DNA of 64,000 bases from an uncultured Pseudomonadales bacterium (GTDB lineage: Bacteria; Patescibacteriota; Microgenomatia; UBA1400; PJMF01), in NCBI GenBank assembly GCA_964455555.1, contig CAYVXV010000002.1, positions 67,677 through 131,676 of the forward strand. Reading direction: 5' to 3'. This document shows positions 20,699 through 38,307 of the stretch, one piece after another. How positions within the stretch are numbered: position 1 is the first letter of the stretch; every line of letters starts with the position of its first letter. The notes beneath the pieces are model-generated. The model saw only the letters and a list, made by a program, of their open reading frames with translations, ran no database searches and was not told the DNA's origin. A program made the position numbers and the translations under genes.

Positions 20699-20710
20699 TG
20701 AGATAAAGCC

Positions 20711-22472
<1,762 letters not shown>

Positions 22473-22473
<1 letters not shown>

Positions 22474-24600: not shown

Positions 24601-24601
24601 T

Positions 24602-25948
24602 ATGACTCATATTTTATTTGCGATTATCATTGTAGTAATATCAATAGTAGGCGTATTATTTTCATTGCTTTTTACAGGAAAGAAGCTCAATATCGAATCT
24701 ATTGGTCTTTCCATGCTTCTAGGTCCACTAGCTGTTACATATACTCACTTTCTGGCATATCAATACTTAGATGTTCCATTCAACCTTAGAACTTTATTCG
24801 TCGTAATTGCCGGCTTAGTGCTTATTGGTATCCTGCTGTTATTCTTGCATGGCCAAAAACTCAGATTAGATATAAGACAGAGCACAGTCCGCTCTTTTTC
24901 TAAGCCGGCCAAGCTTCTCATTGGCGTAATTTCGCTTGTTATTGGCTTCGTATGGTTACAAAATTTGGTATGGCCAATTTTTGAATGGGACGCATTAACG
25001 CTCTATGATTTTAGAGGCAGAATCTTAGCCACCGAGGGTATGTTTACTCAGGACATACTTACAAAATACTTTTTTGGTTATCCACCGTTTACCTCATTGC
25101 TACATAGTTATGGATACATGGCAGGCGTAGTCTATATAAAAATCTGGTATGCATATTTATATACTGGCTTAATCCTCACCTTTTACGCTTGGTTGCGAAA
25201 AGACACCACGCGAATGCTGGCGTTGTTTGGGGCCTTGCTACTAGCAATTTCCCCCCATATCTTAAGCCATGGTCTCATCGCCTACACCAATTTACCCTAT
25301 GCACTCTATTTTTCATTGGGAAGTCTTTATATTTTAGACTGGCTGAAATCGGATAGTAGGGCAGCGTTACTGGTTGGGAGCATTATGGTTGCCGGGAGTA
25401 GCTGGGTACGCTTAACAGAACCATTTTGGGTAATAGCCATTTTACTTATAATTGCAGGGGTAGCATGGAAGAAAAAAGAAATTATAACTGGAGTATTTGC
25501 AGTGTTCTTGATTATTTTTGCACGTCAACCGTGGCTGCAGTTTCGAGCAGCTATTCATGACCTCAACACCAGCACTGCATTGAATCAGGTAGTGAATAAT
25601 GTTAATAAAGGCAGCGATAGCTATTTACAGTATTTATATAGCGTTCCAGAAGTAATTCCCTTTGTAGCTGAAGCGTTAGAGAAAGTAGTTGCTACATTTA
25701 TTCTTCTACTGCTACTAAGTTTGATGATAGTTGTTAAGAACCGAGACTACAATTTATTGCGATATCATATTGTCTGGCTAGCTGCTGTAGGGATAATTCT
25801 CTACGGAACCTTTGCACTCAGTGTTTCAACAGACTATTGGAACAAAATACCTGGCTCACTCACGAGAATGAGTATATTTTTGGTGATTTTCTTTGTTGCC
25901 ATTATTATAAAAACAACGCAACTAAGTCTAAATGAGTCTACAAAATGA
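24602..25948 (+). CDS. Polytopic membrane protein; candidate O-unit polymerase (Wzy-like) or other GT-C-like enzyme
   Basis: About 12 TM helices over 448 aa. Sits in a wzx/GT-containing polysaccharide cluster. No conserved catalytic motif identifiable by eye. Confidence 0.35.
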   Translation: MTHILFAIIIVVISIVGVLFSLLFTGKKLNIESIGLSMLLGPLAVTYTHFLAYQYLDVPFNLRTLFVVIAGLVLIGILLLFLHGQKLRLDIRQSTVRSFSKPAKLLIGVISLVIGFVWLQNLVWPIFEWDALTLYDFRGRILATEGMFTQDILTKYFFGYPPFTSLLHSYGYMAGVVYIKIWYAYLYTGLILTFYAWLRKDTTRMLALFGALLLAISPHILSHGLIAYTNLPYALYFSLGSLYILDWLKSDSRAALLVGSIMVAGSSWVRLTEPFWVIAILLIIAGVAWKKKEIITGVFAVFLIIFARQPWLQFRAAIHDLNTSTALNQVVNNVNKGSDSYLQYLYSVPEVIPFVAEALEKVVATFILLLLLSLMIVVKNRDYNLLRYHIVWLAAVGIILYGTFALSVSTDYWNKIPGSLTRMSIFLVIFFVAIIIKTTQLSLNESTK

Positions 25949-26958
25949 AAACTATAATCCTACACAATATCATCTCTAATAATTCGGTATATAAACTATC
26001 AAGCTATATTAAAAGACATAAAGAAGAGTTGGGAAATGTTGAGGTATGGTTTTGTGCTGAGACTGAGGACAATAGACAATGGACGCTGCAAGAAGAGATA
26101 GATTTTGAGTACACTGTACTTAGTGGTAATGAAATAAAGTTACGAGGAAAAGACCTTTTTACCTATTTTATAAACTGGAACATCTGGAAAAAACTTACTG
26201 CAGCTAATCCGGATAGATTAATCATCAACGGCTGGGACCAGTTTGCCTACCAACTCTCATTTTTTTGGGGCTGGCTCTATAAAAAGAAGCTCACACTGTG
26301 GAGTGGCAGCACTAAATACGAAAAAAGTTGGAGGAGAACACTCACAAAGCCATTGGTGAGGTGGTTTGTGTGGACTAGTGACAATTATATTGCCTATGGC
26401 ACTAGAGCAAAGGAATATTTAGTTTCCCTCGGTGCTCAAAGAGATAAAATTGAGATCTTTCTGAATGATGTCAATAAAGAGTACTTTACAACCCAGGCAA
26501 AGAAATTACGATTCCAAAAGGAAGTATTAGTATTAAAGGAAAAATATGGACTTACACAACAATTTAACTTGCTTTTTGTTGGGCAGTTTATTGAACGTAA
26601 AGGGATTCTAGATCTTTTGCAAACATATTGTAACTTAAAAGAGAGTGGCACGATTGATAAGTGGGGGTTAGTTTTAGTTGGGTCTGGACTGCTTGAAGAG
26701 AAAATGGGAGCTATAATTAAAGCAAGAAAAATTAAAGATGTGGTATTTCTTGGGCATGTGGATCAGTACGACTTGCCTGAGGTGTACGCAATATGCGATA
26801 TCTTGGTGTTGCCCTCCCGTGAAGAAGTGTGGGGGCTTGTGGTGAACGAGGCATTGTATTCTGGATTGACAGTTGTTGTCTCAAACGCGTGCGGATGTGT
26901 GCCAGATATTGTACAAGAACATAAAAAGGGTTACACTTTTAAAATAGAAAACGAGTAA
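25945..26958 (+). CDS. GT4-like (GT-B) glycosyltransferase
   Basis: ...VLPSREEVWGLVVNEALYSGLTVVVSNACG... is an EX7E-type C-terminal motif. Confidence 0.7.
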   Translation: MKTIILHNIISNNSVYKLSSYIKRHKEELGNVEVWFCAETEDNRQWTLQEEIDFEYTVLSGNEIKLRGKDLFTYFINWNIWKKLTAANPDRLIINGWDQFAYQLSFFWGWLYKKKLTLWSGSTKYEKSWRRTLTKPLVRWFVWTSDNYIAYGTRAKEYLVSLGAQRDKIEIFLNDVNKEYFTTQAKKLRFQKEVLVLKEKYGLTQQFNLLFVGQFIERKGILDLLQTYCNLKESGTIDKWGLVLVGSGLLEEKMGAIIKARKIKDVVFLGHVDQYDLPEVYAICDILVLPSREEVWGLVVNEALYSGLTVVVSNACGCVPDIVQEHKKGYTFKIENE

Positions 26959-26960
26959 GT

Positions 26961-28235
26961 ATGAAAAAGATTAGTGTTATAGGTTTGGGGTATGTTGGCC
27001 TTCCCACCCTAGTAGCAATTGCAAAATCTGAAAAATTTGAGGCTGTAGGTCTTGATGTAGATAAGAATAAGATTAAACAAATTAATGATGGCAATTGTCC
27101 AATTGACGATGATATTGTTGCTGAATATCTTAAATTTCATTCATTACATGTAAGCACAGACCCTAAAATTATAAAAGATAGTGATGTATTTATTATTTGT
27201 GTACCTACTCCAATATATGACGATTATTTACCAAACTATGAGTATGTTTTAGCTGCATCAAGTACGGTTGCAAAATATATAACAAAAGGCAGTCACGTAG
27301 TGCTTGAATCTACGGTCAACCCAGGTACTTCTGAAGAGCTAGTAGTGCCCCTACTCAATAAAGAAGCCAGGCTTACGGCAGGAAAAGATTTTAATGTTAC
27401 CCACTGCCCTGAAAGAATAAATCCAGGGGATAATAAGTGGACTATTTACAATATAAATCGTAATATTGGCTCAATTGATCAAAAACTTAATCATGAAATT
27501 GCTGAAATATACAGGCAGTTTTTACCCGAAATTGAGGTAAATGAAGTAAGTGAACTAAAAATTGCTGAGTCTACAAAAATACTTGAAAACACCTATCGTG
27601 ATGTTAATATTGCCCTCGTAAATGAAATTGCAAAATCATTTGATGTACTAGGCATTGACCTGAAAGAAACCATAGATGCATCGGCTAATAAACCATTTGG
27701 CTACATGCCGCATTGGCCAGGATGTGGTGTTGGTGGACACTGCATTGCAGTAGATCCTTATTTCCTTATAGATAGAGCAGCCAGAAGCGGGTTTAACCAT
27801 GAATTTCTAAAGCTGGCACGTGATATTAATAACAGTATGCCTGAATATACTGTTCGAAAACTGATTCTAACCCTAAACAAGTTGGGCATGCCAGTTAGGG
27901 GTACTAAAGTCGGACTCCTTGGCTTAACTTATAAACCAGACGTAGCAGATACAAGAGAAAGCCCGGCATTTCAAATTCTCTGGCGATTAGAAAAGCTTTA
28001 TGCTGATGTAACTACCTATGATCCATACGTAAAATCTGATACTGATAATTTAGAAGAAATTGTTAGCTCATCAACTGCCCTAGTTATTGCAACAAATCAT
28101 GATGTGATAGAAGCTAATCTTCTGAAACTGCTTAAAGATTCTAAGGTAAAGATCGTAATTGATGGACGAAACTGTCTAGACAAAAATTTAGTTAAAGAGC
28201 TAGGTATAGAATACAAGGGAATAGGAAGACAGTAA
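26961..28235 (+). CDS. wbpA: UDP-N-acetyl-D-glucosamine (or mannosamine) 6-dehydrogenase, WbpA/WecC family
   Basis: MKKISVIGLGYVGLP gives the N-terminal NAD fold and ...GCGVGGHCIAVDPYF... the catalytic Cys. Followed directly by WbpB/D/E homologues. Confidence 0.7.
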   Translation: MKKISVIGLGYVGLPTLVAIAKSEKFEAVGLDVDKNKIKQINDGNCPIDDDIVAEYLKFHSLHVSTDPKIIKDSDVFIICVPTPIYDDYLPNYEYVLAASSTVAKYITKGSHVVLESTVNPGTSEELVVPLLNKEARLTAGKDFNVTHCPERINPGDNKWTIYNINRNIGSIDQKLNHEIAEIYRQFLPEIEVNEVSELKIAESTKILENTYRDVNIALVNEIAKSFDVLGIDLKETIDASANKPFGYMPHWPGCGVGGHCIAVDPYFLIDRAARSGFNHEFLKLARDINNSMPEYTVRKLILTLNKLGMPVRGTKVGLLGLTYKPDVADTRESPAFQILWRLEKLYADVTTYDPYVKSDTDNLEEIVSSSTALVIATNHDVIEANLLKLLKDSKVKIVIDGRNCLDKNLVKELGIEYKGIGRQ

Positions 28236-29266
28236 TGAAAAAGATAAGTGTGGGTGTTATTGGTCTTGGAAGAATTTCACCTCGGCATATTGCAGATTCT
28301 ATCGATAAAATTGAGGCATTAGAACTTGCGGCCGTATGTGACATCGACGAGAGTACTTTTGAGCCATATCAAAACAGAGATATAGCATTTTACACTGGTT
28401 ACAATGACCTCATTAACGATAATAATGTGGACGTGGTTGCTATCGCCACCCCCAATGGATACCACTTTGAAATGGCTAAAGCAGTGGCTAAGGCTGGAAA
28501 GCACTGTGTATTGGAAAAACCTATAACCCAAGATCAAGAGACCGCACAACAACTCGTTGAGATTTTTGGAAATAGTGATGGCATTTTGTTTCCAGTTCTC
28601 CAAGTTCGCTTTAATCCAGTAATACAAAAAATTAAAGAGGTAATAAAAAATAATAACTTAGGTAAATTATTTTCTGCAACTTTAACTATCAGGTGGACCA
28701 GACCTCAGGAATATTTTGATGAGAGCGATTGGAAGGGAACAAAGGATATGGATGGTGGTTCATTGCTTACCCAAGCCATCCATTACATTGATGCTACGCA
28801 ATATATATTGGGTCCTGTAGATTCAGCCTTTGGAACAGTAGAAACAGCAGTAAGAGATATTGAAACTGAAGATACAGTTAAAGCACTTTTGTCTTTTAAA
28901 AATGGTTTTAACGGTCTCCTAGAATTTACAGTAGCAACATATCCACATAATTTAGAGTCTTCACTCATGATAATGGGAGAGACCGGAACTGTTAAAATTG
29001 GTGGTAAAGCTATGAATGAGCTCGAAGAGTGGCTGGTGGAAAATATGCCGCGGCCAAGTATTGAAAAGGGCTTAGATCCTAACGTATACGCCGGCGGCAA
29101 GTATACCGGCTCCTGTCCCAATCATTATAGAATTTACGAAAATGTGGTTGAGGTGCTTCAACATGAGAAAAAACCATATATTTCTGGACAAGATGCTGTA
29201 CATGCCATCGAAATTATTCGTGCCATTAAGTCCTCATCCAGCTCAGGAAAGGTTGAGAAAATATGA
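28235..29266 (+). CDS. wbpB: Gfo/Idh/MocA oxidoreductase, WbpB-like UDP-GlcNAcA 3-dehydrogenase
   Basis: MKKISVGVIGLGRISPRH...VLEKPI... is the Gfo/Idh/MocA N-terminal signature; position between the wbpA-like and wbpD-like genes. Confidence 0.65.
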   Translation: MKKISVGVIGLGRISPRHIADSIDKIEALELAAVCDIDESTFEPYQNRDIAFYTGYNDLINDNNVDVVAIATPNGYHFEMAKAVAKAGKHCVLEKPITQDQETAQQLVEIFGNSDGILFPVLQVRFNPVIQKIKEVIKNNNLGKLFSATLTIRWTRPQEYFDESDWKGTKDMDGGSLLTQAIHYIDATQYILGPVDSAFGTVETAVRDIETEDTVKALLSFKNGFNGLLEFTVATYPHNLESSLMIMGETGTVKIGGKAMNELEEWLVENMPRPSIEKGLDPNVYAGGKYTGSCPNHYRIYENVVEVLQHEKKPYISGQDAVHAIEIIRAIKSSSSSGKVEKI

Positions 29267-29832
29267 TGGAGGACTACTTTGCACACCAGTCTGCATTCAT
29301 TGATGAAGGAGCGAATGTTGGTAAAGGAGCACGGATTTGGCATAACACGCATGTAACAGAAACTGCCATAATTGGGGAGAAATCCAATGTTGGGCAGAAT
29401 TGCTTCGTGGCAGGAAAAGTTGGTAATAACTGCAAGCTGCAAAATAATGTTAACGTGTACCAAGGTGTCAAATTGGGCAATTATGTATTTTGCGGCCCAT
29501 CTATGACCTTTACCAATGATAAGTCTCCAAGAGCTCAATTTCCAAAAAATGGAGAGTATTTAGCAACAACAGTAGGTAATAATGTTACTTTTGGTGCTGG
29601 CTCTGTAATTCTTTCTAACATTTCCATAGGAGACTGGGCATTTATTGGTGCAGGCGCAGTTGTCACTAAAGATGTGCTAGATTACGCTTTAATAGTTGGC
29701 AATCCTGGAAAACAAATTGGCTGGGCATGTGAGTGTGGCTTATCTCTAGGGAATATGCATGATTCGGTTGTATGCAACAATTGCGGGAAAACATATCAAC
29801 TCAATGATAAGAAGGAACTTAAAAGAGTATGA
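29263..29832 (+). CDS. wbpD: Left-handed beta-helix (hexapeptide) N-acetyltransferase, WbpD-like
   Basis: Hexapeptide repeats (...IGEKSNVGQNCFVAGKVGNNCKLQNNVNV...); 189 aa, matching WbpD length; ATGA overlap with its neighbours. Confidence 0.65.
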   Translation: MMEDYFAHQSAFIDEGANVGKGARIWHNTHVTETAIIGEKSNVGQNCFVAGKVGNNCKLQNNVNVYQGVKLGNYVFCGPSMTFTNDKSPRAQFPKNGEYLATTVGNNVTFGAGSVILSNISIGDWAFIGAGAVVTKDVLDYALIVGNPGKQIGWACECGLSLGNMHDSVVCNNCGKTYQLNDKKELKRV

Positions 29833-30929
29833 GCAGAATTCCAATGGTAGATCTACAAGCTCAATATCAAAGTATTAAAGATGAAATTGATGCTGCTTTT
29901 TCTTCAGTAATTTCCGACACCGCCTTTGTTGGCGGAAAATACGTTAAACAGTTTGAAGAAGATTTGGCTGAGTATTTATCTGTACCGTATGTTATTGGAG
30001 TAAATTCGGGGACAGACGCACTCTTTCTTTCGCTTAAGGCACTTAATATAGGGAAGGGTGATGAAGTCATTACCACACCATTTACTTTCTTTGCTACTGC
30101 GGAAGTTATTGCCCAAACCGGTGCCACTCCCGTTTTTGTTGATATTAATCCTAATACATTTAACATTAATGTTGATTTAATAGAAGAAGCCATAACCAAA
30201 AATACCAAAGCAATTATACCTGTACATCTTTATGGTTTACCTGCAGAAATGAGTAAGCTAATGAAGATTGCAGATAAACATAAGCTTGAGGTAATCGAGG
30301 ACGCATGTCAAGCTATTGGTGCAAGAATTGGCAATAAAAGGGTTGGTACTATTGGCACTACTGGGTGCTTTAGCTTTTTTCCTTCAAAGAATTTAGGTGC
30401 CTATGGAGATGGCGGTGCTGTTGTAACACATGATAAAAACATATATAACAAAATTATTAAACTAAGAAATCATGGTTCTAAAAAGAAATACTTTAATGAA
30501 GAACTTGGGTTTAGCAGCAGATTAGATGGGCTACAGGCAGCAATACTGAGTGCAAAGCTGCCCTATTTAGATAAATGGAATGAACTACGAAGACACCATG
30601 CTCAGGGCTATTCAAAAGCACTAGCAGAAAATGAATCCCTGACTACTCCGAAATATGATTTTGATTCAGATAAGTACCATGTCTTTCATCAATACACAAT
30701 TAGAACTGAAAATAGAAGTAGAATACAAAACATCCTAGTTGAAAATGGTATCGATAGTATGATCTATTATCCTGTACCCCTTCATCTTCTTCCTGCATTT
30801 GAGTACCTTGGTTATACAGAGGGGGATTTTCCAGAAGCTGAAAAGGCAAGTAGTGCAGTGTTAAGTTTGCCGATGTATCCAGAATTACAACAAAGTATTA
30901 TCTCCATAATTACTGGCTCGATACAGTGA
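29829..30929 (+). CDS. wbpE: DegT/DnrJ/EryC1-type PLP-dependent sugar aminotransferase, WbpE-like
   Basis: ...VIGVNSGTDAL...CFSFFPSKNLGAYGDGGAV... gives the PLP-lysine motif of DegT family. Confidence 0.8.
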   Translation: MSRIPMVDLQAQYQSIKDEIDAAFSSVISDTAFVGGKYVKQFEEDLAEYLSVPYVIGVNSGTDALFLSLKALNIGKGDEVITTPFTFFATAEVIAQTGATPVFVDINPNTFNINVDLIEEAITKNTKAIIPVHLYGLPAEMSKLMKIADKHKLEVIEDACQAIGARIGNKRVGTIGTTGCFSFFPSKNLGAYGDGGAVVTHDKNIYNKIIKLRNHGSKKKYFNEELGFSSRLDGLQAAILSAKLPYLDKWNELRRHHAQGYSKALAENESLTTPKYDFDSDKYHVFHQYTIRTENRSRIQNILVENGIDSMIYYPVPLHLLPAFEYLGYTEGDFPEAEKASSAVLSLPMYPELQQSIISIITGSIQ

Positions 30930-31969
30930 AAATTTTTACTGGTTATACAAATATTGCAGGGCACAGCAGTAGTCTAGTAACGGAGCTGAGAAAGCGGAAT
31001 ATAGTAGCAACATTTATTTCATTTTCTCCACATAAATATGGTTACGATAGTAGTTTCCCTACATTAAATATTGAAAGATTTCAACTATCTCAAAAAAGCA
31101 TGTTTTCTCTTTCTGGTTTTATATCGAGACTTGAACTTTTAATCGTATTGATTGTGAATTTTATTAAAATAGGTTCAAATCATGACACCTTTGTTTTTTG
31201 GGCGGGAAAATCTTTGTTGCCAGGAAATCTTGACCTACCCATTTTAAAATTACTAAAAAAAAATGTGATTATGATATTTGTTGGTACCTTTGCCCGAGGT
31301 GGAGAATTTTCAAAACTGATTCAGGAAAGACCTTTCTCACCTTATTCAAATTATAAGCCAAATAGATTAATGGAATTTAGAAGGTCATTACAAATTAGGT
31401 TTATTGAAGTATTTTCAGATATTAGATATGCTCAAAAAGAATATGATCATTTTTTAACAAAGGACTATTTTAAGTATTTTCAGCCTTTTCCTACATACAG
31501 TAAAACTAATAGTAGAAATACATCAAATAGATTTAAAATAACCCATAGCCCTAGTAATCGTCATATTAAAGGAACTGAATATGTAATTAGTGCCATAAAT
31601 AAACTTAATAACTTTTATGATTTTGATTTTGAACTTCTTGAGAACATTCCTAATGATGAAGTTATCAAAAAATTATCTTCCAGTTCATTACATATTGACC
31701 AACTCCTACTTGGAGGCTATGGCACATCAGCTATTGAAGCAATGTCATTTGGAATACCTGTTGTTGCAAACATTAGTTGCATTGATAACAAAAGCAGTTG
31801 CCCTATCATACATGCAACACCAGATACATTATATGAGGTAATTGAAGATATTATTGTTAATAATAAAATTCCAGACAGCAAAACTTTGCAAAGATATGTT
31901 TTTAAGAATCACGATATTGAAATATTTACAAATAGGTTAGTGAGTGATATTCATGAAATTGAGTCGTAA
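30926..31969 (+). CDS. Hypothetical protein, possible GT-B-type glycosyltransferase
   Basis: C-terminal ...LLGGYGTSAIEAMSFGIPVVAN... resembles the GT-B nucleotide-sugar-binding motif. Very AT-rich, about 28% GC. Confidence 0.35.
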   Translation: MKIFTGYTNIAGHSSSLVTELRKRNIVATFISFSPHKYGYDSSFPTLNIERFQLSQKSMFSLSGFISRLELLIVLIVNFIKIGSNHDTFVFWAGKSLLPGNLDLPILKLLKKNVIMIFVGTFARGGEFSKLIQERPFSPYSNYKPNRLMEFRRSLQIRFIEVFSDIRYAQKEYDHFLTKDYFKYFQPFPTYSKTNSRNTSNRFKITHSPSNRHIKGTEYVISAINKLNNFYDFDFELLENIPNDEVIKKLSSSSLHIDQLLLGGYGTSAIEAMSFGIPVVANISCIDNKSSCPIIHATPDTLYEVIEDIIVNNKIPDSKTLQRYVFKNHDIEIFTNRLVSDIHEIES

Positions 31970-32475
31970 TTCTCAATATGTTTTACGATTTTTGCTGGAA
32001 CTCCCGCAAGTATTACATTCTCTTCCTTGAAAGATTTTGTTACTACCGCACCAGCAGCAACTATTGTATGTTCCCCTATTTCAACTTCTGGCAATATCAC
32101 AGCATTTGCACCAATCCAGCAATTTGATTTTATTTTGATTGGTTTAGCTCTGTTCCATATTTTAAAATTATTAACGTCATGGTTTGCTGAAATAATTTTT
32201 ACACCTGGTCCAATGTAAATATTATCTTGTAATACAATTCCATTAGCAGCCTGAGTGTAGCATCCGGGCATAAATCCTGGATAATATTTAGACTTGCCCA
32301 TGGTAATTTTGTTGTGGCTTGTGACAATAGACGACCAGTGTACTAACCAAGGGACATTTCCATTTATTCTTAGAATTCTTTGAAATAAGTAATATTGAAA
32401 ATACTTGGAAAATCCTAAAGACATAACTTTAGGTGGCAAAATTTTTTTTATGATTGTTTTTAGTAAAAGTTTCAT
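31951..32475 (-). CDS. Hexapeptide-repeat sugar O-acetyltransferase (WcaF/LacA/NodL-like)
   Basis: ...IGPGVKIISANHDVNNF...NCWIGANAVILPEVEIGEHTIVAAGAVVTKS... matches the LbH acetyltransferase signature. Confidence 0.7.
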   Translation of the reverse strand: MKLLLKTIIKKILPPKVMSLGFSKYFQYYLFQRILRINGNVPWLVHWSSIVTSHNKITMGKSKYYPGFMPGCYTQAANGIVLQDNIYIGPGVKIISANHDVNNFKIWNRAKPIKIKSNCWIGANAVILPEVEIGEHTIVAAGAVVTKSFKEENVILAGVPAKIVKHIENYDSIS

Positions 32476-32490
32476 ATTCTAATGGTTTTT

Positions 32491-33615
32491 CTAAGTATAT
32501 AGATTTAAGAGAATTTTTTCTTCCATTTCCCAATTAAATAATTTTCTTGCTGAAATAGCTTTTGCCTCCTGTTTGTGGACTGCTATTTTATTTAATTGAT
32601 TTAATAATTCCCCCAATTGTTCTTCATGTGGGGAAATAATCCAGCCACATTGATACTCTTCGACAATATTTTTCATTTCAGGGAAATCACTAACTATTAT
32701 TGGAGTACCACCATGGAGATACTCAAATATTTTATTGGGGAGTGATAGGTATACATTTTTACTGGTAGCTTTTGAAATATTAAACCCCACATCAAATTCA
32801 GAAGTGATGGAGGATATATCCTCCATAGGAACTGGAGGATGAAAATGTATATTTGAAAATCTATTACTATATGAAATAACTTTACTTTCCATCGAACCAA
32901 AACCTACAAATACAATATGGTGAGAAGTATTTTTACTAAAAGTTTCTAAAAGCAAATCAATATTTCTATTTGCTCCAAACATTCCAATAAGACCGAATAG
33001 GAGCCCATCTTTTTTTATGCCATACTTCTTTTTTAAATTATACTTACTGTTCTTAGGCTGCTTATAGATAGGGATATTTCGAATTACATGAATTTGACTT
33101 TTAGGAATTGAGTACAATTCAATATATTTATTACGTATTGAATTATTTACAACTATGATTGAATCAATAAATCGTAACGATATTTTTTCAATAATATAGA
33201 AAAATTTGAGAATATAAGAAGGTTCATCTCGTTCAGTTTCTAGTTCATGTGCATCGTAAATTAATTTACTACCTAAGATAAGCTTGGTTGTGACTCCTAT
33301 TAGCAATGTTTCTGTATTGTGACAATGAACTACCTGCGGCTTTTTTAAGACTACTTGAAAAAATGCCATGAATTGCCATAGCAAGTATGAAATGTGTTGG
33401 AATACGCTTCCAGGATTAAATAGGTGTGAAAGATTATTAAGTCGTAGTATCTTAGTCTTATTATTTAATTTTGTAATTTGAGGCAACTTTTTATCACGAA
33501 GAGCAGTAATAAGGTATAACTTCTCTGCGGAGTCTAAACCAGAGATGCTTTTCAACTCTTTTAATATCCTAGAGTCAAACTCCATAAAGTCATAGGTTAG
33601 GTGTACAACAGTCAT
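32491..33615 (-). CDS. GT4-like (GT-B) glycosyltransferase
   Basis: C-terminal ...LPNKIFEYLHGGTPIIVSDFPEM... (EX7E-like). N-terminal domain typical of GT4. Confidence 0.65.
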   Translation of the reverse strand: MTVVHLTYDFMEFDSRILKELKSISGLDSAEKLYLITALRDKKLPQITKLNNKTKILRLNNLSHLFNPGSVFQHISYLLWQFMAFFQVVLKKPQVVHCHNTETLLIGVTTKLILGSKLIYDAHELETERDEPSYILKFFYIIEKISLRFIDSIIVVNNSIRNKYIELYSIPKSQIHVIRNIPIYKQPKNSKYNLKKKYGIKKDGLLFGLIGMFGANRNIDLLLETFSKNTSHHIVFVGFGSMESKVISYSNRFSNIHFHPPVPMEDISSITSEFDVGFNISKATSKNVYLSLPNKIFEYLHGGTPIIVSDFPEMKNIVEEYQCGWIISPHEEQLGELLNQLNKIAVHKQEAKAISARKLFNWEMEEKILLNLYT

Positions 33616-34667
33616 TTGAGAAGTGCCCTTGCAATCTTTTCAGAACTTTTTCCATCACCATACAAATTATTTTCCATTTCCATTACTTGCAGTATTTTAT
33701 CGACTTTACTTTGTATATCTGCTGGTTCAGAAAGTATATTCCATCCTAGTTCAATTAATTCTCTCCACGCCGTGTCTTCCATAATTACAATAGCTCTCTT
33801 TTTTGCAAAATAGGCTTCTTTTTGCAAACCACCACTATCAGTTAAAACAAATGCACAGTTTTGTAATAAACCCATAATTTCAAAGTACCCTACGGGTTCA
33901 ATTACCTTGACATTATTTAGTAATCCATCTAATTTAAATGAGTTAATCCTTTTCTTTGTTCTTGGATGTATGGGTAATACTATTTGGTAATCGTTGGCCA
34001 ACTTATTTAATTGAGATAATATTATTCTTAAAGTTCTCTTATTATCTACGTTAAAATCTCGATGCAATGTACATAAAATGTATTTATTGGCTTCAAGTCC
34101 CAATTTTTTTGGAAACTTCTTATTAAATTGAGGCTCAAGTTTTAGATATAAATCATACATAACATCACCAGTTAAATAAACGTTATTTGAAATATTTTCT
34201 CTTCTTAAGTTGTCTACACATAATTTGCTTGGTGCAAAGTGCATCGTAGACAAGTGATCAGTCATTACTCGATTAATTTCTTCAGGCATATCGTTTGGAC
34301 TCATTCTTAAGCCTGCTTCAACATGTGCAACATCAATTTTCATTTTTCTCGCCACTAGAGCGCCTGCCGCAGTAGTGTTGGTATCACCATACACTACAAC
34401 CATGTCTGGCTTTTCTTTGGAAACAACCTCTTCAAAAGATCTCATTATTTCAGCCGTCATTACTGCATGGGAGGCTGACCCAATGTTTAGGTTGTATTTA
34501 GGTGAATGTATTTTAAGATGATCGAAAAAAACATCAGATAAAATCCTGTCATAATGCTGACCAGAGTTTACTAATACTTCCTCAATTCCCCGCTCAAGAA
34601 ATTTTGGCTGAACTGCTGCTTCTTTTATAAATTGTGGCCGTGCGCCAACTAGTGAAATTATTTTCAT
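33612..34667 (-). CDS. wbpI: UDP-N-acetylglucosamine 2-epimerase (non-hydrolysing), WecB/WbpI family
   Basis: MKIISLVGARPQFIKEAAV...VVVYGDTNTTAAGALVARKMKIDVAHVEAGLR... are WecB family signatures. Confidence 0.85.
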   Translation of the reverse strand: MKIISLVGARPQFIKEAAVQPKFLERGIEEVLVNSGQHYDRILSDVFFDHLKIHSPKYNLNIGSASHAVMTAEIMRSFEEVVSKEKPDMVVVYGDTNTTAAGALVARKMKIDVAHVEAGLRMSPNDMPEEINRVMTDHLSTMHFAPSKLCVDNLRRENISNNVYLTGDVMYDLYLKLEPQFNKKFPKKLGLEANKYILCTLHRDFNVDNKRTLRIILSQLNKLANDYQIVLPIHPRTKKRINSFKLDGLLNNVKVIEPVGYFEIMGLLQNCAFVLTDSGGLQKEAYFAKKRAIVIMEDTAWRELIELGWNILSEPADIQSKVDKILQVMEMENNLYGDGKSSEKIARALLK

Positions 34668-34677
34668 AGAAATTATA

Positions 34678-36237
34678 TTAGTTTTTAAATTTTAATTTTT
34701 TTGTGATTAAACTAACTGTATACACCACGTCGTTTCGCAATTCCTTTTGTATTAAAATAAAAGTGGTAAAAATAAGAGTGTAAACTCCTCCTGCAACTAA
34801 GATTTGAGGAAGACCTCTTGGATCAGGTTTTAAAATATACACAAATAAAACAACAGTTACTAATAAACCAATCAACTTTACATATATACTCAATGGGATT
34901 TTAAAACTCACCATCGTACTAATCAAAAATAAATTTCCAAGCATACTAAACAAATAAATTAATAATCCACTCCATACAGCACCAATTAATCCAAATTGAC
35001 TAACTAAAATGGTGCCTGCAATTATACTAAGGATAACAGCCCCGATTGCAATATATAGCCTTTCTTTTATTAGTCCCAATCCCGAAACAATGGTGCTTAA
35101 AAAACCATTTATTAGGTATATTATGAATCCAATTGCCATAATTCTCAAAGGTACGCTGGCGATACTCATCCACTTAGATCCAAATAATGTCTGAATTAGA
35201 GGCTCTGGGAACAAAAATATGAATAAGCAAAAGTACACTGATATCAAAGGACCAATTTTTAACATTTTTTCAGTAACTTGTGCCAACTGAGAGGGCGATT
35301 TTTCATGTAGTCCAGAAACGAGTGGTATAAATGATTTCCACAAGGGTACTAAAAAGATTTGAGGTACACCTACAATTGGAAGAATAATATTATAAGCACC
35401 AACAGCAGCTAATCCTGCAAAATAGGTCAAGAAAAAAATATTTATAAAACTTAAAATCGTTCCTGCGGTAGTGTTCAGAATACTTGGAATAGCGTAGGCA
35501 AGCATTTTATTAAAAAGAGCCCCATCCCATTTTGGCAACTCTATTATATGCCTGAAATCTAAAAAGAATTTCCCAAATATAATTATTGCAGTCAGCAGAT
35601 AGGCTAGCGACCAAAAAAGAAAGTACATATTAACTGAACTAACTCCTGAAAAATACAAATATGCAGTTCCTGCCAATACTAAGCCATAGTACAAAACATC
35701 AATTGCACTATAGATGTTTTCACGCTCATACCCGATATAAAATTTTCGAAAAGCACTTACTATGCTGTGTGATATAAAAAAAATAATACCAATTTTTAAT
35801 AAAGGAACAGCTAATATTTCCTTAAAATATAACTCTGCTAGCCAGTTAGTTGAAAAAAATATTGCAATACTTAACAATGCAGATGTTCCCATTTCAATTA
35901 TGAGATCATATGCAAAAGTGTTCCAGATTGACGATGGTTTATTATGTTTTTTAAATTTTGGAATAAAGTAAGCAACACTATAACCAAATCCCAAATCATT
36001 ATAGTTGCTCAAAATTGTAAACACTGCCATCACCGCATAAAACAACCCAAACATCTCTTGAGATAATGAGCGAGAGAGAAGCATGCGGATAAAATAACCC
36101 AAGGGTGCGCTTAGCAAAGCAAATAATAAGATTGTAATACTGCTTTTGGTGATTTTACCCCTTAATGCAGCTGTTTCATCAATACCAGTACCAACATCAA
36201 TTTCTGAGGCAGCTATTGTATTTTTTGGTTCTTGCAT
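34678..36237 (-). CDS. wzx: Wzx-type oligosaccharide flippase (MOP/PST family)
   Basis: 519 aa, about 14 TM helices, N-terminal PST-family pattern (...FIRMLLSRSLSQEMFGLFYAV...). Confidence 0.7.
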   Translation of the reverse strand: MQEPKNTIAASEIDVGTGIDETAALRGKITKSSITILLFALLSAPLGYFIRMLLSRSLSQEMFGLFYAVMAVFTILSNYNDLGFGYSVAYFIPKFKKHNKPSSIWNTFAYDLIIEMGTSALLSIAIFFSTNWLAELYFKEILAVPLLKIGIIFFISHSIVSAFRKFYIGYERENIYSAIDVLYYGLVLAGTAYLYFSGVSSVNMYFLFWSLAYLLTAIIIFGKFFLDFRHIIELPKWDGALFNKMLAYAIPSILNTTAGTILSFINIFFLTYFAGLAAVGAYNIILPIVGVPQIFLVPLWKSFIPLVSGLHEKSPSQLAQVTEKMLKIGPLISVYFCLFIFLFPEPLIQTLFGSKWMSIASVPLRIMAIGFIIYLINGFLSTIVSGLGLIKERLYIAIGAVILSIIAGTILVSQFGLIGAVWSGLLIYLFSMLGNLFLISTMVSFKIPLSIYVKLIGLLVTVVLFVYILKPDPRGLPQILVAGGVYTLIFTTFILIQKELRNDVVYTVSLITKKLKFKN

Positions 36238-36238
36238 A

Positions 36239-36934
36239 TCAGTTATTCGTACTTAGATTTTTAGATACAAATGTAAAGTTCCAATGATCTCTCCAAATTA
36301 ATTGGTAGCCACATTCTATTAAATACGAAATAGTATTCATTACCCCTCTCTTAGAATACGGCTGATCAAATTCGACACAAATTACAGCAATGCTTATCTT
36401 ATTTTCAATGATATCTTTTATTACTTTATGCTCCGCACCTTCAATGTCTAGTTTTAGCAAATCCAAATGATTGTGTCCGAGTTCATCCATAATTGAATTT
36501 AAACTCTTACATTCTGCTACAAAAAAACTATCTGTTTCTTGTAGGTTTAATATAGAGTGAGACACATGTGTTGGATCAGCGGGTTGGTAAAACTTCTTTT
36601 CTTCATCTTTATTCCAGATTCCATAGGGATAGAATTGCAATTTATCTGAAACAAATTGCTTAATATACTCAATTGACCTAGGCGTAGGATCAAATGCAAC
36701 AACCTTACATTTATACTCCTTAATAAGTTCTTTATCAAATGAAATATTTTCACCAACACCCGCTGAATAACAAATAGCATTTTCATCCAAAATGTTTGTT
36801 GGTATAAACCACCCACCATAGTCATCTCCATACTTTTTTACCACAGTGCGTGTCCTGGTATATAACAGATCAATAAAGTATAAAAATATCAGGTTTTGTA
36901 AATATGAAATAATATCTTTAGTCATAGTTGCCAT
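36239..36934 (-). CDS. FkbM-family SAM-dependent methyltransferase (sugar O-methyltransferase)
   Basis: ...DLLKLDIEGAEHKV... is the FkbM (Methyltransf_21) hallmark; ...CYSAGVGENISFD... is the SAM motif I. Confidence 0.8.
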   Translation of the reverse strand: MATMTKDIISYLQNLIFLYFIDLLYTRTRTVVKKYGDDYGGWFIPTNILDENAICYSAGVGENISFDKELIKEYKCKVVAFDPTPRSIEYIKQFVSDKLQFYPYGIWNKDEEKKFYQPADPTHVSHSILNLQETDSFFVAECKSLNSIMDELGHNHLDLLKLDIEGAEHKVIKDIIENKISIAVICVEFDQPYSKRGVMNTISYLIECGYQLIWRDHWNFTFVSKNLSTNN

Positions 36935-37029: not shown

Positions 37030-38307
37030 ATGGTTGTCAAATCCCTCTTTAAATCCCGCGGCCTCTACCAGTCCTTCATCATTATGGTGGGTTCTTTGGT
37101 GGCTTCCGGGCTCTCGGCTATTTCGCTTATTCTGATCACCCGTCAGCTGGGTCCAGCCAAGTTTGGCGAGTTCTCGGTTGGTTTTGCCATTTTGCTGATC
37201 TTGGTGCGCCTTAATGACCTGGGAATGACCAATGTGGTACAAAAATATGCTGCCAGGGAAGAGGACCGGGCCAAAGCCAACAAAATCTTTTCATTTGCCA
37301 CCCGGGTACGGCTCATCGGCACCCTAGTTATCTGGGTCTCGGGTTTGCTGCTGGCCCGACCTATTGCCGATCTGCTCAACTTCTCCGAACCGCTGATTAT
37401 TTATCTGGCTTTTTTCCTGAGCACCGGCATTTCCATGTACGAGCACATCCAGGCCATGCTGCAATCCCTGCACCGCTTTGGCCAGGCTGCCTGGATTAAT
37501 ATTCTGCAGGCAATTGCTAAGGTTCTCGGGGCAGCGGTGCTCTTCTTTACCGCTTCGCACGCCACAGTACCGATTTTTGCCTGGTATGTCTTTGCCCCTG
37601 CGCTGCCGCTTTTGTTCCTGCCCATTTACTTCCCTAAGTGGGTCAAGATCCGCCTCCAGGATAAATTCTCCGACCAGAAAAAACTGCTCACGGTGATGGC
37701 CGGCCACTCAGCGGTGGCTTTCATTGCTGCCGGTATTATTGAGAATATTGATGTCTTATTTGTTCAGCGCTATCTCAGTACCTATGAAGCCGGTTTGCTA
37801 GGTGGGGTTGGACGGGTGGCTTTGCTATTTTCTATCCTGGCTTATGCCCTGAGCTCGGTTTTAAACCCACGGGTGGCTAAATATACCAATGCCAAGGACC
37901 TCAGGGCTTTCTTTAAAAAAGCCTGGCTAATGGCAGGAGCTGCTATGTTGTTCCTGATTGCTTATCTGCCTTTTTCAAAACTGATCCTGCTTTATACCAT
38001 CGGCGAGCAATACCTACCCGGTCTCGATATCATGAATATTCTGGTGGCTTCATCACTTATGACGGTAGCAGTGGTGCCTTTTATTGCCTTTTTCTTTAGC
38101 ATTGACCGTCCCTGGTATTTTTCAGTCAGCGGCCTCACGCAGCTGGCAATAATCCTGGTTGGAAACGGTGTCTTTGTACCTATTTACGGTCTGGAGGCAG
38201 CTGCTTGGACCAGGCTTTTAGCCAGGGCATTTCTGTTTATTATGACCGCGGGCTTGGCGCTCTATTTTATGCGGGATATTAACGTCAAGAGAGGGGTAAA
38301 TGCTTAA
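37030..38307 (+). CDS. MOP-superfamily polysaccharide transporter (second Wzx-like flippase)
   Basis: 425 aa, about 12 TM helices, with ...ITRQLGPAKFGEFSVGFAI... the PST N-terminal motif. GC about 50%, in sharp contrast to the upstream wzx. Confidence 0.65.
   Translation: MVVKSLFKSRGLYQSFIIMVGSLVASGLSAISLILITRQLGPAKFGEFSVGFAILLILVRLNDLGMTNVVQKYAAREEDRAKANKIFSFATRVRLIGTLVIWVSGLLLARPIADLLNFSEPLIIYLAFFLSTGISMYEHIQAMLQSLHRFGQAAWINILQAIAKVLGAAVLFFTASHATVPIFAWYVFAPALPLLFLPIYFPKWVKIRLQDKFSDQKKLLTVMAGHSAVAFIAAGIIENIDVLFVQRYLSTYEAGLLGGVGRVALLFSILAYALSSVLNPRVAKYTNAKDLRAFFKKAWLMAGAAMLFLIAYLPFSKLILLYTIGEQYLPGLDIMNILVASSLMTVAVVPFIAFFFSIDRPWYFSVSGLTQLAIILVGNGVFVPIYGLEAAAWTRLLARAFLFIMTAGLALYFMRDINVKRGVNA

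What the first reader, a model, noticed from the sequence alone, without database searches (positions are those of the whole stretch)
26961..36934. Complete WbpA-B-E-D-I type pathway for UDP-2,3-diacetamido-2,3-dideoxy-mannuronic acid, with Wzx, FkbM methyltransferase and O-acetyltransferases
Five family types co-localise: a UDP-GlcNAc 6-dehydrogenase (26961..28235), a Gfo/Idh/MocA 3-dehydrogenase (28235..29266), a hexapeptide N-acetyltransferase of 189 aa (29263..29832), a DegT aminotransferase (29829..30929) and a UDP-GlcNAc 2-epimerase (33612..34667). This is exactly the enzyme set that makes UDP-ManNAc3NAcA in Pseudomonas aeruginosa O5 (WbpA/B/E/D/I) and Bordetella (WlbA-D).

The first four genes are translationally coupled (ATGA/overlapping stops). 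The epimerase is on the opposite strand, in an operon with wzx, an FkbM methyltransferase, a GT4 and an O-acetyltransferase. That arrangement implies a methylated and/or O-acetylated di-N-acetylated uronic acid-containing repeat unit.
Basis: partly seen in the sequence, partly recalled or inferred. Interest (0 to 1): 0.55.

Follow-up and report, generated by a model that had tools for sequence, protein, structure and literature searches.

The report
Known rare-sugar pathway in a CPR bacterium
The region really does encode the five known enzyme types that turn UDP-GlcNAc into the rare acidic sugar UDP-ManNAc3NAcA, next to flippase, glycosyltransferase and tailoring genes; this is an ordinary new example of a well-studied pathway, notable mainly because the host appears to be an ultra-small Patescibacteria (CPR) bacterium.

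Summary
All ORFs exist at the stated coordinates and belong to the stated families. Four of the five pathway enzymes also match the right sub-clade.

- **2-epimerase:** 47% identical to the proven Thermus thermophilus UDP-GlcNAc3NAcA 2-epimerase. It carries the Trp/Tyr specificity switches that 13 WecB-type controls lack.
- **N-acetyltransferase:** 47% identical to PDB 3MQG, which I recall as WlbB.
- **3-dehydrogenase:** matches 3Q2K/3Q2I (recalled as Bordetella-type WlbA) at E=2e-64, against 1e-8 for P. aeruginosa WbpB.
- **Aminotransferase:** groups with sugar C-3 aminotransferases, far above PglE/PseC.
- **6-dehydrogenase:** acetamido-sugar branch, not Ugd. Its exact substrate rests only on operon membership, because its clade is not pathway-specific.

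The junctions TAATG/ATGA/ATGA/GTGA confirm coupling. The operon is longer than stated (19683-31969). The same five-gene set recurs in at least five metagenome loci. RuvB and DH relatives indicate Patescibacteria.

Verdict: supported; a new member of a known kind; low to moderate interest. The one oddity is a minor epimerase subclass, Glu16/Met296/Ala300.

The parts
26961..28235 (+). NDP-N-acetylhexosamine 6-dehydrogenase (WbpA-role candidate), 424 aa
   Evidence: TIGR03026 at 368 bits against a cutoff of 190. Best PDB hits are 4R16 (8e-76) and Cap5O (8e-69); Ugd enzymes score 1e-36 or worse. It is 31% identical to E. coli WecC and lies in a separate clade. Cys261, Lys206, Asn210 and Asp265 are invariant among homologues. 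The TAATG junction couples it to the next gene.
28235..29266 (+). WlbA-type (Bordetella/Chromobacterium family) UDP-sugar 3-dehydrogenase, Gfo/Idh/MocA, 343 aa
   Evidence: Full-length matches to 3Q2K (2e-64, 34% identity) and 3Q2I (1e-58, 32% identity). WbpB 3OA2 scores only 1e-8, over the N-terminal half. The EKP motif is conserved at residues 94-96.
29263..29832 (+). WlbB/WbpD-type sugar 3-N-acetyltransferase (left-handed beta-helix), 189 aa
   Evidence: 3MQG/3MQH at 2.4e-45, 46.6% identity over residues 7-182. The next hits are all 3-N-acetyltransferases (7S43, 4MZU, QdtC). ATGA overlaps on both sides.
29829..30929 (+). PLP-dependent sugar C-3 aminotransferase (WbpE/WlbC role), 366 aa
   Evidence: DegT family, 3e-123. 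Identity is 51% to 7B0D, 46% to QdtB and 42% to WbpE. The WbpE Lys185 position aligns to Lys187 in an ungapped block.
30926..31969 (+). Putative GT-B glycosyltransferase, 347 aa, last gene of the plus-strand operon
   Evidence: Only a weak Glycos_transf_1 hit (E=1e-3) and no NCBIfam hit. Coupled to the aminotransferase by GTGA. Homologues lie near the pathway genes in L141 and L095.
31951..32475 (-). Hexapeptide acetyltransferase of the O-acetyltransferase type, 174 aa
   Evidence: The best NCBIfam similarities are maltose O-acetyltransferase, WbbJ and WcaF, all below their cutoffs.
32491..33615 (-). GT4 glycosyltransferase, 374 aa
   Evidence: Glyco_transf_4 plus Glycos_transf_1. An ATGA overlap joins it to the epimerase. 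A homologue sits directly upstream of the epimerase in L088.
33612..34667 (-). UDP-GlcNAc3NAcA-type 2-epimerase (WbpI/WlbD role), 351 aa, minor E-Y-M-A-W subclass
   Evidence: 8SXV/8SXY at 3e-98, 47% identity. 21 of the 24 residues mapped from PMC10622841 are conserved, including Trp301 (=W307) and Tyr93 (=Y96). Glu16 replaces Ala18, and Met296/Ala300 replace Arg302/Glu306.
34678..36237 (-). Wzx/MOP-family flippase, 519 aa
   Evidence: Polysacc_synt, Polysacc_synt_3 and MatE. Strongly hydrophobic throughout.
36239..36934 (-). FkbM-family methyltransferase, 231 aa, first gene of the minus-strand operon
   Evidence: PF05050 at 7e-14; TIGR01444 at 52.8 bits against a cutoff of 37.7.
19683..26958 (+). 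Upstream part of the same plus-strand operon: GT2, DUF2304, GT2, GDP-fucose-synthase-like SDR, GT4, 332-aa membrane protein, 448-aa ~10-TM protein (Wzy candidate), GT1
   Evidence: Gaps between these genes range from -25 to +12 nt. Families. Hydrophobic segments.
37030..38307 (+). Second MOP-family flippase, divergent from the FkbM operon
   Evidence: Polysacc_synt at 4e-16. 11 hydrophobic segments.
51390..53102 (+). Wzy_C (O-antigen ligase/polymerase-like) membrane protein elsewhere in the island
   Evidence: PF04932 at 6.5e-9.
60646..61266 (+). Small PglC-like polyprenyl-phosphate phosphoglycosyl transferase (candidate initiating enzyme)
   Evidence: Bac_transf at 9e-61. TIGR03025 at 242 bits, below its cutoff of 296.

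Best explanation
[quoted passage not shown] It sits inside a lipid-linked (Wzx-type) glycan assembly island of a Patescibacteria (CPR) bacterium.

Proposed steps:
1. The 424-aa dehydrogenase oxidises C-6 of UDP-GlcNAc to give UDP-GlcNAcA. This step is inferred from operon membership.
2. The WlbA-type Gfo/Idh/MocA enzyme oxidises C-3. As I recall the literature, this family uses exchangeable NAD+ in a sequential mechanism and does not use the 2-oxoglutarate-recycling ping-pong mechanism of P. aeruginosa WbpB.
3. The DegT aminotransferase (PLP on Lys187) aminates C-3.
4. The WlbB-type left-handed beta-helix enzyme N-acetylates the 3-amine with acetyl-CoA.
5. The Trp301/Tyr93-type 2-epimerase on the opposite strand converts the gluco product to the manno product.

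The adjacent GT-B/GT4 transferases would then add the sugar to a polyprenyl-phosphate-linked oligosaccharide. A small PglC-like transferase elsewhere in the island could start that oligosaccharide. The FkbM methyltransferase and the O-acetyltransferase-like protein may tailor it, and Wzx would flip it.

Shown here: gene presence, order and coupling; sub-clade assignment of four of the five enzymes; and recurrence of the five-gene set elsewhere. Inferred: every catalytic activity, the order of the steps, and the fate of the sugar.
For: - **Coordinates and families:**
- **Epimerase:** 47% identity to the biochemically proven T. thermophilus UDP-GlcNAc3NAcA 2-epimerase. The paper's specificity switches are Trp in place of the Arg that binds 3'-OH, and Tyr in place of His/Gln (PMC10622841). 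E. coli WecB and 12 WecB-like epimerases from other loci all have M/L, H/Q and R at those sites; only the Thermus enzyme, L072 and the window enzyme have Y and W. About 146 of the 150 nearest representative clusters carry the Trp.
- **Acetyltransferase:** 46.6% identical to 3MQG over its full length; the remaining top hits are all C-3 N-acetyltransferases.
- **3-dehydrogenase:** end-to-end match to 3Q2K/3Q2I at 2e-64 and 1e-58.
- **Aminotransferase:** falls among C-3 aminotransferases and the PLP lysine is conserved.
- **DH:** belongs to the N-acetylhexosamine branch, not Ugd. It is translationally coupled to the other three genes and is embedded in the same way in a Shapirobacteria locus, L004.
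- **Recurrence:** the same five genes co-occur in L088, L114, L139, L141 and L147.
- **No rival pathway parts:** no RmlA, equivalog-level RmlB or ketoisomerase was found among the window ORFs that were scanned.
Against: - The DH clade is not pathway-specific. Only L004, of about 40 close homologues, has the three C-3 enzymes nearby. Two relatives at 55% identity (L005, L008) lie near WecB-type epimerases. DHs found in a Wbp context are polyphyletic.
- No WbpA reference sequence was available for comparison.
- The DH's closest solved relatives are UDP-ManNAc dehydrogenases.
- The aminotransferase is closer to QdtB/DesV (dTDP-sugar enzymes) and to the poorly described 7B0D than to WbpE.
- The epimerase has Glu16 where the proven enzyme has Ala18, and it lacks the Arg302-Glu306 salt bridge.
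- The identities of 3Q2K/3Q2I (WlbA) and 3MQG (WlbB), and the kinetic distinction between the WlbA and WbpB families, rest on my recollection of Thoden & Holden. Those papers could not be opened.
- Nothing biochemical was tested.
Confidence: 0.8

Rival explanations
1. Same enzymes and same end product, but a different order. The 3-dehydrogenase, aminotransferase and acetyltransferase act first on UDP-GlcNAc to give UDP-GlcNAc3NAc. The epimerase then makes UDP-ManNAc3NAc, and the dehydrogenase (related to UDP-ManNAc dehydrogenases) oxidises C-6 last.
For: The DH's best solved relatives are UDP-ManNAc dehydrogenases, 4R16 and Cap5O. The closest NCBIfam equivalog by score is the archaeal UDP-ManNAc DH, at 308 bits and below its cutoff. 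Two close relatives (55% identity) sit near WecB-type epimerases. The epimerase has Glu16 at a position that PMC10622841 places on the C-6' side of the sugar (Ala18 in the enzyme that accepts the uronate), which might disfavour a carboxylate.
Against: The canonical order is experimentally established in P. aeruginosa, as summarised in PMC10622841. As I recall, 3Q2K/3Q2I were solved with UDP-GlcNAcA bound. The only long contig of the Glu-subclass epimerase (L088) also carries a DH inside the same gene string, which does not distinguish between the two orders. The effect of Glu16 on specificity is untested.
Confidence: 0.12
2. Two unrelated pathways happen to be adjacent: a WecB/WecC-like pair making UDP-ManNAcA, and a Qdt/Fdt-like branch making a dTDP-3-acetamido-3,6-dideoxyhexose.
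For: The aminotransferase scores higher against QdtB (2e-94) and DesV (1e-89) than against WbpE (5e-81). The acetyltransferase also hits QdtC and FdtD-like enzymes. The DH resembles UDP-ManNAc dehydrogenases.
Against: The epimerase lacks the WecB signature (M/L-H/Q-R) and has the 3-acetamido-type Y/W signature. WecC equivalog NF008286 scores 228 bits against a cutoff of 459, and identity to E. coli WecC is 31%. A WlbA-type 3-dehydrogenase has no role in the Qdt route, which uses a 4,6-dehydratase plus a 3,4-ketoisomerase. No thymidylyltransferase, equivalog-level RmlB or cupin isomerase was found among the scanned ORFs. The acetyltransferase's best hit by a margin of 16 orders of magnitude is 3MQG. 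The four genes are translationally coupled.
Confidence: 0.04
3. The pathway yields a derivative rather than plain ManNAc3NAcA (for example a different 3-N-acyl group, a uronamide, or a mixture of gluco and manno forms). The unusual epimerase subclass would reflect that altered substrate.
For: There is a recurrent co-varying subclass, E-Y-M-[A/G/S]-W, against the dominant A-Y-R-E-W. Variants of this pathway that yield modified sugars are documented in P. gingivalis and T. forsythia (PMC7468200 title and abstract, listed; PMC4031482).
Against: No WbpG-like amidotransferase or extra acyltransferase with a clear role is present in the operons. The acetyltransferase is a close WlbB relative. The subclass still co-occurs with the standard four partner genes in L088.
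Confidence: 0.04

Closest known systems
Bordetella pertussis wlb locus (WlbA-WlbB-WlbC-WlbD) for UDP-ManNAc3NAcA
   Same: The 3-dehydrogenase belongs to the same family (3Q2K at 2e-64, full length) and the acetyltransferase is of the same type (3MQG at 2e-45, 47% identity). A C-3 aminotransferase and a 3-acetamido-type 2-epimerase are clustered with them.
   Different: In Bordetella the 6-dehydrogenase genes lie apart from the wlb cluster (PMC4031482); here the DH is the first of four coupled genes. Identity to WlbA is only 32-34%. The host is a CPR bacterium, which as far as I know lacks LPS, so the acceptor cannot be an LPS core.
Pseudomonas aeruginosa PAO1 O5 B-band pathway (WbpA, WbpB, WbpE, WbpD, WbpI)
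   Same: It has the same five chemical steps and the same end product (pathway as summarised in PMC10622841). The aminotransferase is 42% identical to WbpE and keeps the PLP lysine.
   Different: The 3-dehydrogenase is not WbpB-type: 3OA2 scores only 1e-8, over the N-terminal domain. So the 2-oxoglutarate-coupled ping-pong mechanism probably does not apply. WbpA itself could not be compared.
Thermus thermophilus HB27 five-gene set (WP_011172736-39, WP_148187554), including the structurally characterised 2-epimerase 8SXV/8SXY
   Same: The epimerase is 47% identical. The catalytic Asp, the allosteric-site residues (Gln, His, Glu, His, Arg) and the Trp/Tyr specificity switches are all conserved. 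Both organisms are non-classical-LPS bacteria.
   Different: Ala18 becomes Glu16, and the Arg302/Glu306 salt bridge is replaced by Met296/Ala300. Thermus uses a WbpB-type 3-dehydrogenase (49% identical to WbpB per Table 1 of the paper), whereas the window uses the WlbA type.
E. coli WecB/WecC (UDP-ManNAcA for enterobacterial common antigen)
   Same: The protein folds and families are the same: Epimerase_2 and the NDP-sugar dehydrogenase family.
   Different: The epimerase specificity residues differ (WecB has M-H-R, the window has E-Y-W) and identity is 34%. The DH is only 31% identical and lies in a different clade. Both are below the equivalog cutoffs for WecC.

Membership tests
Wbp/Wlb UDP-ManNAc3NAcA pathway | A UDP-GlcNAc 6-dehydrogenase (WbpA role): an NDP-sugar dehydrogenase of the N-acetylhexosamine branch, not Ugd | tested here: inconclusive
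   Branch membership is met: TIGR03026 passes, the top PDB hits are 4R16 and Cap5O, and Ugd enzymes score 1e-36 or worse. GlcNAc versus ManNAc specificity is unresolved. No WbpA reference was available, the clade has mixed gene contexts, and DHs in a Wbp context are polyphyletic. Automatic JGI labels on homologues at 57-63% identity read 'UDP-N-acetyl-D-glucosamine dehydrogenase'.
Wbp/Wlb UDP-ManNAc3NAcA pathway | An NAD-dependent Gfo/Idh/MocA 3-dehydrogenase (WlbA or WbpB) | tested here: met
   Full-length matches to 3Q2K and 3Q2I at 2e-64 and 1e-58, with the EKP motif conserved. That these entries are WlbA comes from my recollection plus reference 10 of PMC10622841.
Wbp/Wlb UDP-ManNAc3NAcA pathway | A PLP-dependent C-3 aminotransferase (WbpE/WlbC) | tested here: met
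   The top characterised hits are all C-3 aminotransferases. Identity to WbpE is 42% and the WbpE Lys185 position aligns to Lys187. C-4 enzymes score 20 to 50 orders of magnitude weaker than WbpE. Preference for a UDP-uronate over a dTDP-6-deoxy substrate was not resolved.
Wbp/Wlb UDP-ManNAc3NAcA pathway | A WbpD/WlbB-type left-handed beta-helix 3-N-acetyltransferase | tested here: met
   3MQG/3MQH at 2.4e-45, 46.6% identity over 176 aligned residues; the next best hit is at 1.5e-29.
Wbp/Wlb UDP-ManNAc3NAcA pathway | A 2-epimerase with the 3-acetamido-accepting active site: Trp in place of the 3'-OH-binding Arg, Tyr in place of His/Gln, and Ala in place of Leu/Met | tested here: met
   Trp301 and Tyr93 are present. 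The third position is Glu16, which is neither Ala nor Leu/Met. All 13 WecB-type controls show M/L-H/Q-R. Two of the three switches are met, and the third is a variant shared by a small subclass.
Wbp/Wlb UDP-ManNAc3NAcA pathway | Demonstrated production of UDP-ManNAc3NAcA, or presence of the sugar in the glycan | not testable with these tools
   This needs enzymology or glycan analysis.
WbpB-type (P. aeruginosa/Thermus) 2-oxoglutarate-dependent 3-dehydrogenase | Close sequence similarity to WbpB (3OA2, 3O9Z) | tested here: not met
   3OA2 at 1.3e-8 and 3O9Z at 2.7e-8, covering only residues 12-195, against 2e-64 for 3Q2K.
WecB/WecC UDP-ManNAcA pair | A WecB active-site signature and WecC equivalog-level similarity | tested here: not met
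   The epimerase signature is E-Y-W against M-H-R in E. coli WecB. NF008286 scores 228 bits against a cutoff of 459. Identity to E. coli WecC is 31%, in a different clade.
Qdt/Fdt dTDP-3-acetamido-3,6-dideoxyhexose pathway | RmlA, RmlB and a 3,4-ketoisomerase accompanying the aminotransferase and acetyltransferase | tested here: not met
   No thymidylyltransferase was found; the only NTP transferase is ManC-like. The SDR enzymes fall below the RmlB cutoffs. No cupin isomerase was found among the scanned ORFs. ORFs under 100 aa were not scanned.
Wzx/Wzy-dependent glycan assembly | A MOP flippase, an initiating phosphoglycosyl transferase and a Wzy polymerase | tested here: inconclusive
   There are two MOP flippases and a Bac_transf PGT at 60646-61266. 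Wzy is uncertain: a Wzy_C protein at 51390-53102 and an unannotated ~10-TM protein at 24602-25948. No chain-length regulator was identified.

The most novel reading that the evidence does not exclude
The window's epimerase belongs to a small, recurrent, co-varying subclass: Glu at Thermus position 18, Met at 302, and a small residue at 306. This subclass might have a changed sugar-binding pocket on the C-6 side. If so, in this lineage the pathway may run in a different order, with C-6 oxidation last by a UDP-ManNAc-dehydrogenase-like enzyme, or it may deliver a modified 2,3-diamino sugar for a non-LPS surface glycan of a CPR bacterium.
Probability: 0.12. Interest if true: 0.45.

Novelty: new member of a known kind. 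Interest (0 to 1): 0.27.

Why it matters
ManNAc3NAcA is a rare acidic sugar, best known from the O-antigens of pathogens such as P. aeruginosa and B. pertussis. It has also been reported in a Gram-positive cell-wall polymer and inferred in Thermus.

Here a complete, tightly coupled gene set appears in a Patescibacteria genome. As far as I know, that group has very small genomes, limited biosynthetic capacity and no LPS. This extends the taxonomic range of the pathway. It also suggests that these organisms invest heavily in an elaborate, negatively charged surface glycan: essentially the whole 64-kb window is glycan-assembly genes.

In practice the result gives a reliable annotation for these five genes. 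It also provides a simple residue test (Tyr/Trp versus His-or-Gln/Arg) that separated WbpI-type from WecB-type epimerases in every sequence examined here. It does not reveal a new mechanism.

Tried and rejected
1. **Context conservation to fix the DH's function.** A genome scan with a DH profile returned 80 loci. Only L004, of about 40 close homologues, had the three C-3 enzymes beside the DH (L072 has NAT, AMT and epimerase; L006 only an AMT homologue), so DH context is uninformative. A neighbour-joining tree showed that DHs in a Wbp context are polyphyletic.
2. **Enzyme-family swap in Shapirobacteria.** I suspected that L004 uses a WbpB-type 3-dehydrogenase, because its enzyme is only 33% identical to the window's. 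Rejected: it is also 3Q2K-type, at E=1.5e-80.
3. **Primary papers.** I tried to read the WlbA, WbpB and Wbp reconstitution papers (PMC3050068, PMC4241754, PMC2694220). None are held, so mechanistic statements about the WlbA and WbpB families are from memory.
4. **7B0D.** I searched for the paper behind the aminotransferase's closest structure and found nothing relevant.
5. **RNA genes.** tRNA and Rfam scans of the window found nothing.
6. **Promoters and terminators.** The scan was not enriched over shuffles: 66 against 62 expected promoter-like sites, and 12 against 14 expected terminator-like sites. Operon boundaries therefore rest on gene spacing only.
7. **Organism identity.** Exact-sequence look-ups gave only an unnamed NCBI contig of 164,957 bp and run SRR9016294. 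Taxonomy had to be inferred from RuvB and DH relatives.
8. **Literature on CPR and this pathway.** Two searches found no relevant paper. That is not proof that none exists.

Full report
**1. Observation**

Pfam and NCBIfam confirm each family:
- 26961-28235: NDP-sugar dehydrogenase.
- 28235-29266: Gfo/Idh/MocA oxidoreductase.
- 29263-29832: 189-aa hexapeptide transferase.
- 29829-30929: DegT aminotransferase.
- 33612-34667 (-): non-hydrolysing 2-epimerase.
- 34678-36237 (-): MOP/Wzx flippase.
- 36239-36934 (-): FkbM methyltransferase.
- 32491-33615 (-): GT4.
- 31951-32475 (-): O-acetyltransferase-like hexapeptide protein.

The junction sequences are TAATG, ATGA, ATGA and GTGA, so the four sugar-modifying genes and the following glycosyltransferase are translationally coupled.

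The plus-strand operon runs from 19683 to 31969, with 13 genes and gaps of -25 to +12 nt. It meets the five-gene minus-strand operon (36934 to 31951) with a 19-bp overlap of the 3' ends. A consensus promoter and terminator scan was not enriched over shuffles, so it adds nothing.

**2. Sub-clade assignment**

The general family models do not separate WbpA from WecC, WbpE from PglE, or WbpI from WecB. I therefore compared each protein with solved, characterised structures.

*Epimerase.* The best hits are the T. thermophilus UDP-2,3-diacetamido-2,3-dideoxy-glucuronic acid 2-epimerase entries (8SXV/8SXY, E=3e-98, 47% identity). They are followed by UDP-GlcNAc 2-epimerases.

The paper describing those structures (PMC10622841) states that enzymes acting on UDP-GlcNAc have a conserved Arg binding the 3'-OH, a Leu/Met, and a His/Gln. 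In the 3-acetamido-uronate enzyme these are replaced by Trp307, Ala18 and Tyr96.

The window enzyme has Trp301 and Tyr93, and Glu16 at the third site. 21 of the 24 residues I mapped are conserved, including the catalytic Asp and the allosteric-site residues.

As controls I used authentic E. coli WecB and 12 WecB-like epimerases found in other loci. All show M/L, H/Q and R. Only the Thermus enzyme, a Thermoflexales enzyme that sits beside acetyltransferase and aminotransferase homologues (L072), and the window enzyme show Y and W.

Among the 150 nearest representative clusters, about 146 carry the Trp. The commonest five-site signature is A-Y-R-E-W (60 of 150). The window's E-Y-M-A-W belongs to a small recurrent subclass.

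*Acetyltransferase.* The best hit is 3MQG/3MQH (2.4e-45, 46.6% identity, essentially full length). The next hits are all sugar 3-N-acetyltransferases (7S43, 4MZU, QdtC). PglD does not appear among the 60 hits listed. I recall 3MQG as Bordetella petrii WlbB.

*3-dehydrogenase.* It matches 3Q2K and 3Q2I end to end (2e-64 and 1e-58; 34% and 32% identity). WbpB (3OA2) matches only at 1e-8, over the N-terminal half. I recall 3Q2K/3Q2I as WlbA from B. pertussis and C. violaceum, and reference 10 of PMC10622841 is consistent with that.

From memory of that work, this family uses a sequential mechanism with free NAD+, whereas the WbpB/Thermus family recycles bound NADH with 2-oxoglutarate. I could not open the papers to verify this.

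*Aminotransferase.* It is 51% identical to 7B0D, a structure with an uninformative label whose paper I could not find. It is 46% identical to QdtB and 42% to WbpE. PglE (9e-29), PseC (1e-36) and ArnB (4e-37) are far weaker. The WbpE Lys185 position aligns to Lys187. The enzyme is therefore a C-3 aminotransferase, but it is not specifically closest to WbpE.

*6-dehydrogenase.* The best solved relatives are UDP-ManNAc dehydrogenases (4R16, Cap5O) and an NDP-GalNAcA dehydrogenase. UDP-glucose dehydrogenases are much weaker. No NCBIfam equivalog cutoff is reached. It is 31% identical to E. coli WecC and lies in a different clade.

**3. Context tests**

A profile of DH homologues pulled 80 loci from named genomes. 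The closest are Patescibacteria MAGs: Shapirobacteria at 60-61%, and Dojkabacteria and Saccharibacteria at 55%.

Only L004 (Shapirobacteria), of about 40 close homologues, has the oxidoreductase, acetyltransferase and aminotransferase beside the DH. Two close relatives (L005, L008) lie near WecB-type epimerases. L072 (Thermoflexales) has acetyltransferase, aminotransferase and W-type epimerase homologues beside a distant DH. DHs found in a Wbp context are polyphyletic.

So the DH is a generic module recruited to the pathway, and its substrate here is inferred from operon membership only.

In contrast, a metagenome scan seeded with the epimerase subclass showed frequent linkage. Among W-type epimerase loci of at least 8 kb, acetyltransferase homologues occurred in 18 of 40, aminotransferase in 16 of 40 and DH in 13 of 40. 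All five genes were present in L088, L114, L139, L141 and L147. L088 is the only long contig of the Glu-subclass, so that subclass still belongs to the pathway.

L004's oxidoreductase is also 3Q2K-type. That removed my idea of an enzyme-family swap between the two CPR loci.

**4. Surroundings and organism**

ruvC, ruvA and ruvB at 47549-49677 show a bacterium. RuvB's closest named relatives are Patescibacteria group, Ca. Pacebacteria and Ca. Woesebacteria at 69-72% identity. This agrees with the DH result.

Almost the whole window is glycan machinery:
- many GT2 and GT4 genes;
- six PMT_2-type GT-C proteins, plus PIG-V-like and YfhO-like membrane proteins;
- two MOP flippases;
- a Wzy_C protein;
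- a ManC-like guanylyltransferase;
- a small PglC-like phosphoglycosyl transferase.

No thymidylyltransferase, equivalog-level RmlB or ketoisomerase was found. This argues against a Qdt-type dTDP route.

**5. Mechanism**

The most likely course is UDP-GlcNAc, then 6-oxidation, then 3-oxidation (WlbA-type), then 3-transamination, then 3-N-acetylation, then 2-epimerisation, giving UDP-ManNAc3NAcA.

The neighbouring GT-B enzymes would then incorporate the sugar into a polyprenyl-linked oligosaccharide. Methylation or O-acetylation may follow, and then Wzx flipping.

A variant in which C-6 oxidation comes last cannot be excluded. It would give the same product.

**6. Comparison and verdict**

This is the known Wbp/Wlb pathway. 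Its closest relative is the Bordetella wlb type for the 3-dehydrogenase and acetyltransferase, and the Thermus enzyme for the epimerase.

It is a new member of a known kind. The new elements are:
- the host lineage (CPR);
- the DH being fused into the coupled operon;
- a minor epimerase subclass.

I found no paper linking CPR bacteria to this pathway, though the search was limited.

Interest is low to moderate.

Noticed in passing
window 1-64000: Nearly the whole 64-kb window is glycan-assembly genes. These include six PMT_2/GT-C proteins (801-2510, 5824-7482, 9477-11132, 41048-42613, 43685-45160, 53084-54568), a PIG-V-like protein (15433-16635), a YfhO/PTPS-related protein (11839-13641), and many GT2 and GT4 genes. 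The only interruptions noted are ruvCAB (47549-49677), an AhpC peroxiredoxin (39900-40367, minus strand), a LysM protein and a RecO N-terminal-domain ORF at the 3' end (63407-63949). For a presumably ~1-Mb CPR genome this would be a large investment.
   Followed up: partly
window 24000-36000: GC content drops to 0.32-0.39 across the pathway and Wzx operons, with a minimum of 0.32 at 32-34 kb. The flanks are at 0.41-0.47. The pattern resembles a horizontally acquired or hypervariable serotype cassette.
   Followed up: no
window 33612-34667 (-); P0241, P0242, P0249, P0261, P0338; L084-L091: There is a recurrent epimerase subclass with co-varying changes relative to the proven Thermus enzyme: Ala18 to Glu, Arg302 to Met, and Glu306 to Ala, Gly or Ser. 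This loses a salt bridge that the paper says rigidifies the active site. The functional meaning is unknown.
   Followed up: partly
L004 4485-15433 (Ca. Shapirobacteria JAQWFB010000005.1): The closest related locus has the order oxidoreductase-DH-acetyltransferase-aminotransferase-GT2, whereas the window has DH first. No 2-epimerase lies within its 21 kb. Upstream, on the opposite strand, are a second Ugd-like dehydrogenase and a Fic-domain protein. It may therefore make the gluco form (GlcNAc3NAcA), as proposed for P. gingivalis.
   Followed up: partly
L005, L008 (Dojkabacteria, Saccharibacteria MAGs): DH homologues 55% identical to the window's lie 1.7-1.9 kb from WecB-type (M-H-R) epimerases. 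Closely related dehydrogenases in CPR genomes may therefore serve UDP-ManNAcA synthesis rather than the diacetamido pathway.
   Followed up: partly
window 19683-20698: A 225-aa GT2 is translationally coupled (ATGA) to a DUF2304 small membrane protein at the head of the plus-strand operon. The pair looks like a polyprenyl-phosphate sugar synthase with a small membrane partner, which could feed the many GT-C enzymes. This was not tested.
   Followed up: no
window 18058-19590 (-), 2525-4348 (-), 4333-5772 (-), 7485-9416 (-), 38300-39898 (+), 23602-24600 (+), 24602-25948 (+): Several large ORFs have no Pfam hit. 24602-25948 has about 10 hydrophobic segments (a Wzy candidate). 38300-39898 has about 8. 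18058-19590 has none.
   Followed up: partly
window 29829-30929: The aminotransferase's closest solved structure, 7B0D (51% identity), is labelled 'Glutamine--scyllo-inositol transaminase', which looks like an automatic name. I could not find a describing paper, so its true substrate is unknown to me.
   Followed up: partly
window 61364-63352: A 662-aa DUF4012 protein lies immediately downstream of the PglC-like phosphoglycosyl transferase. Its role is unknown.
   Followed up: no
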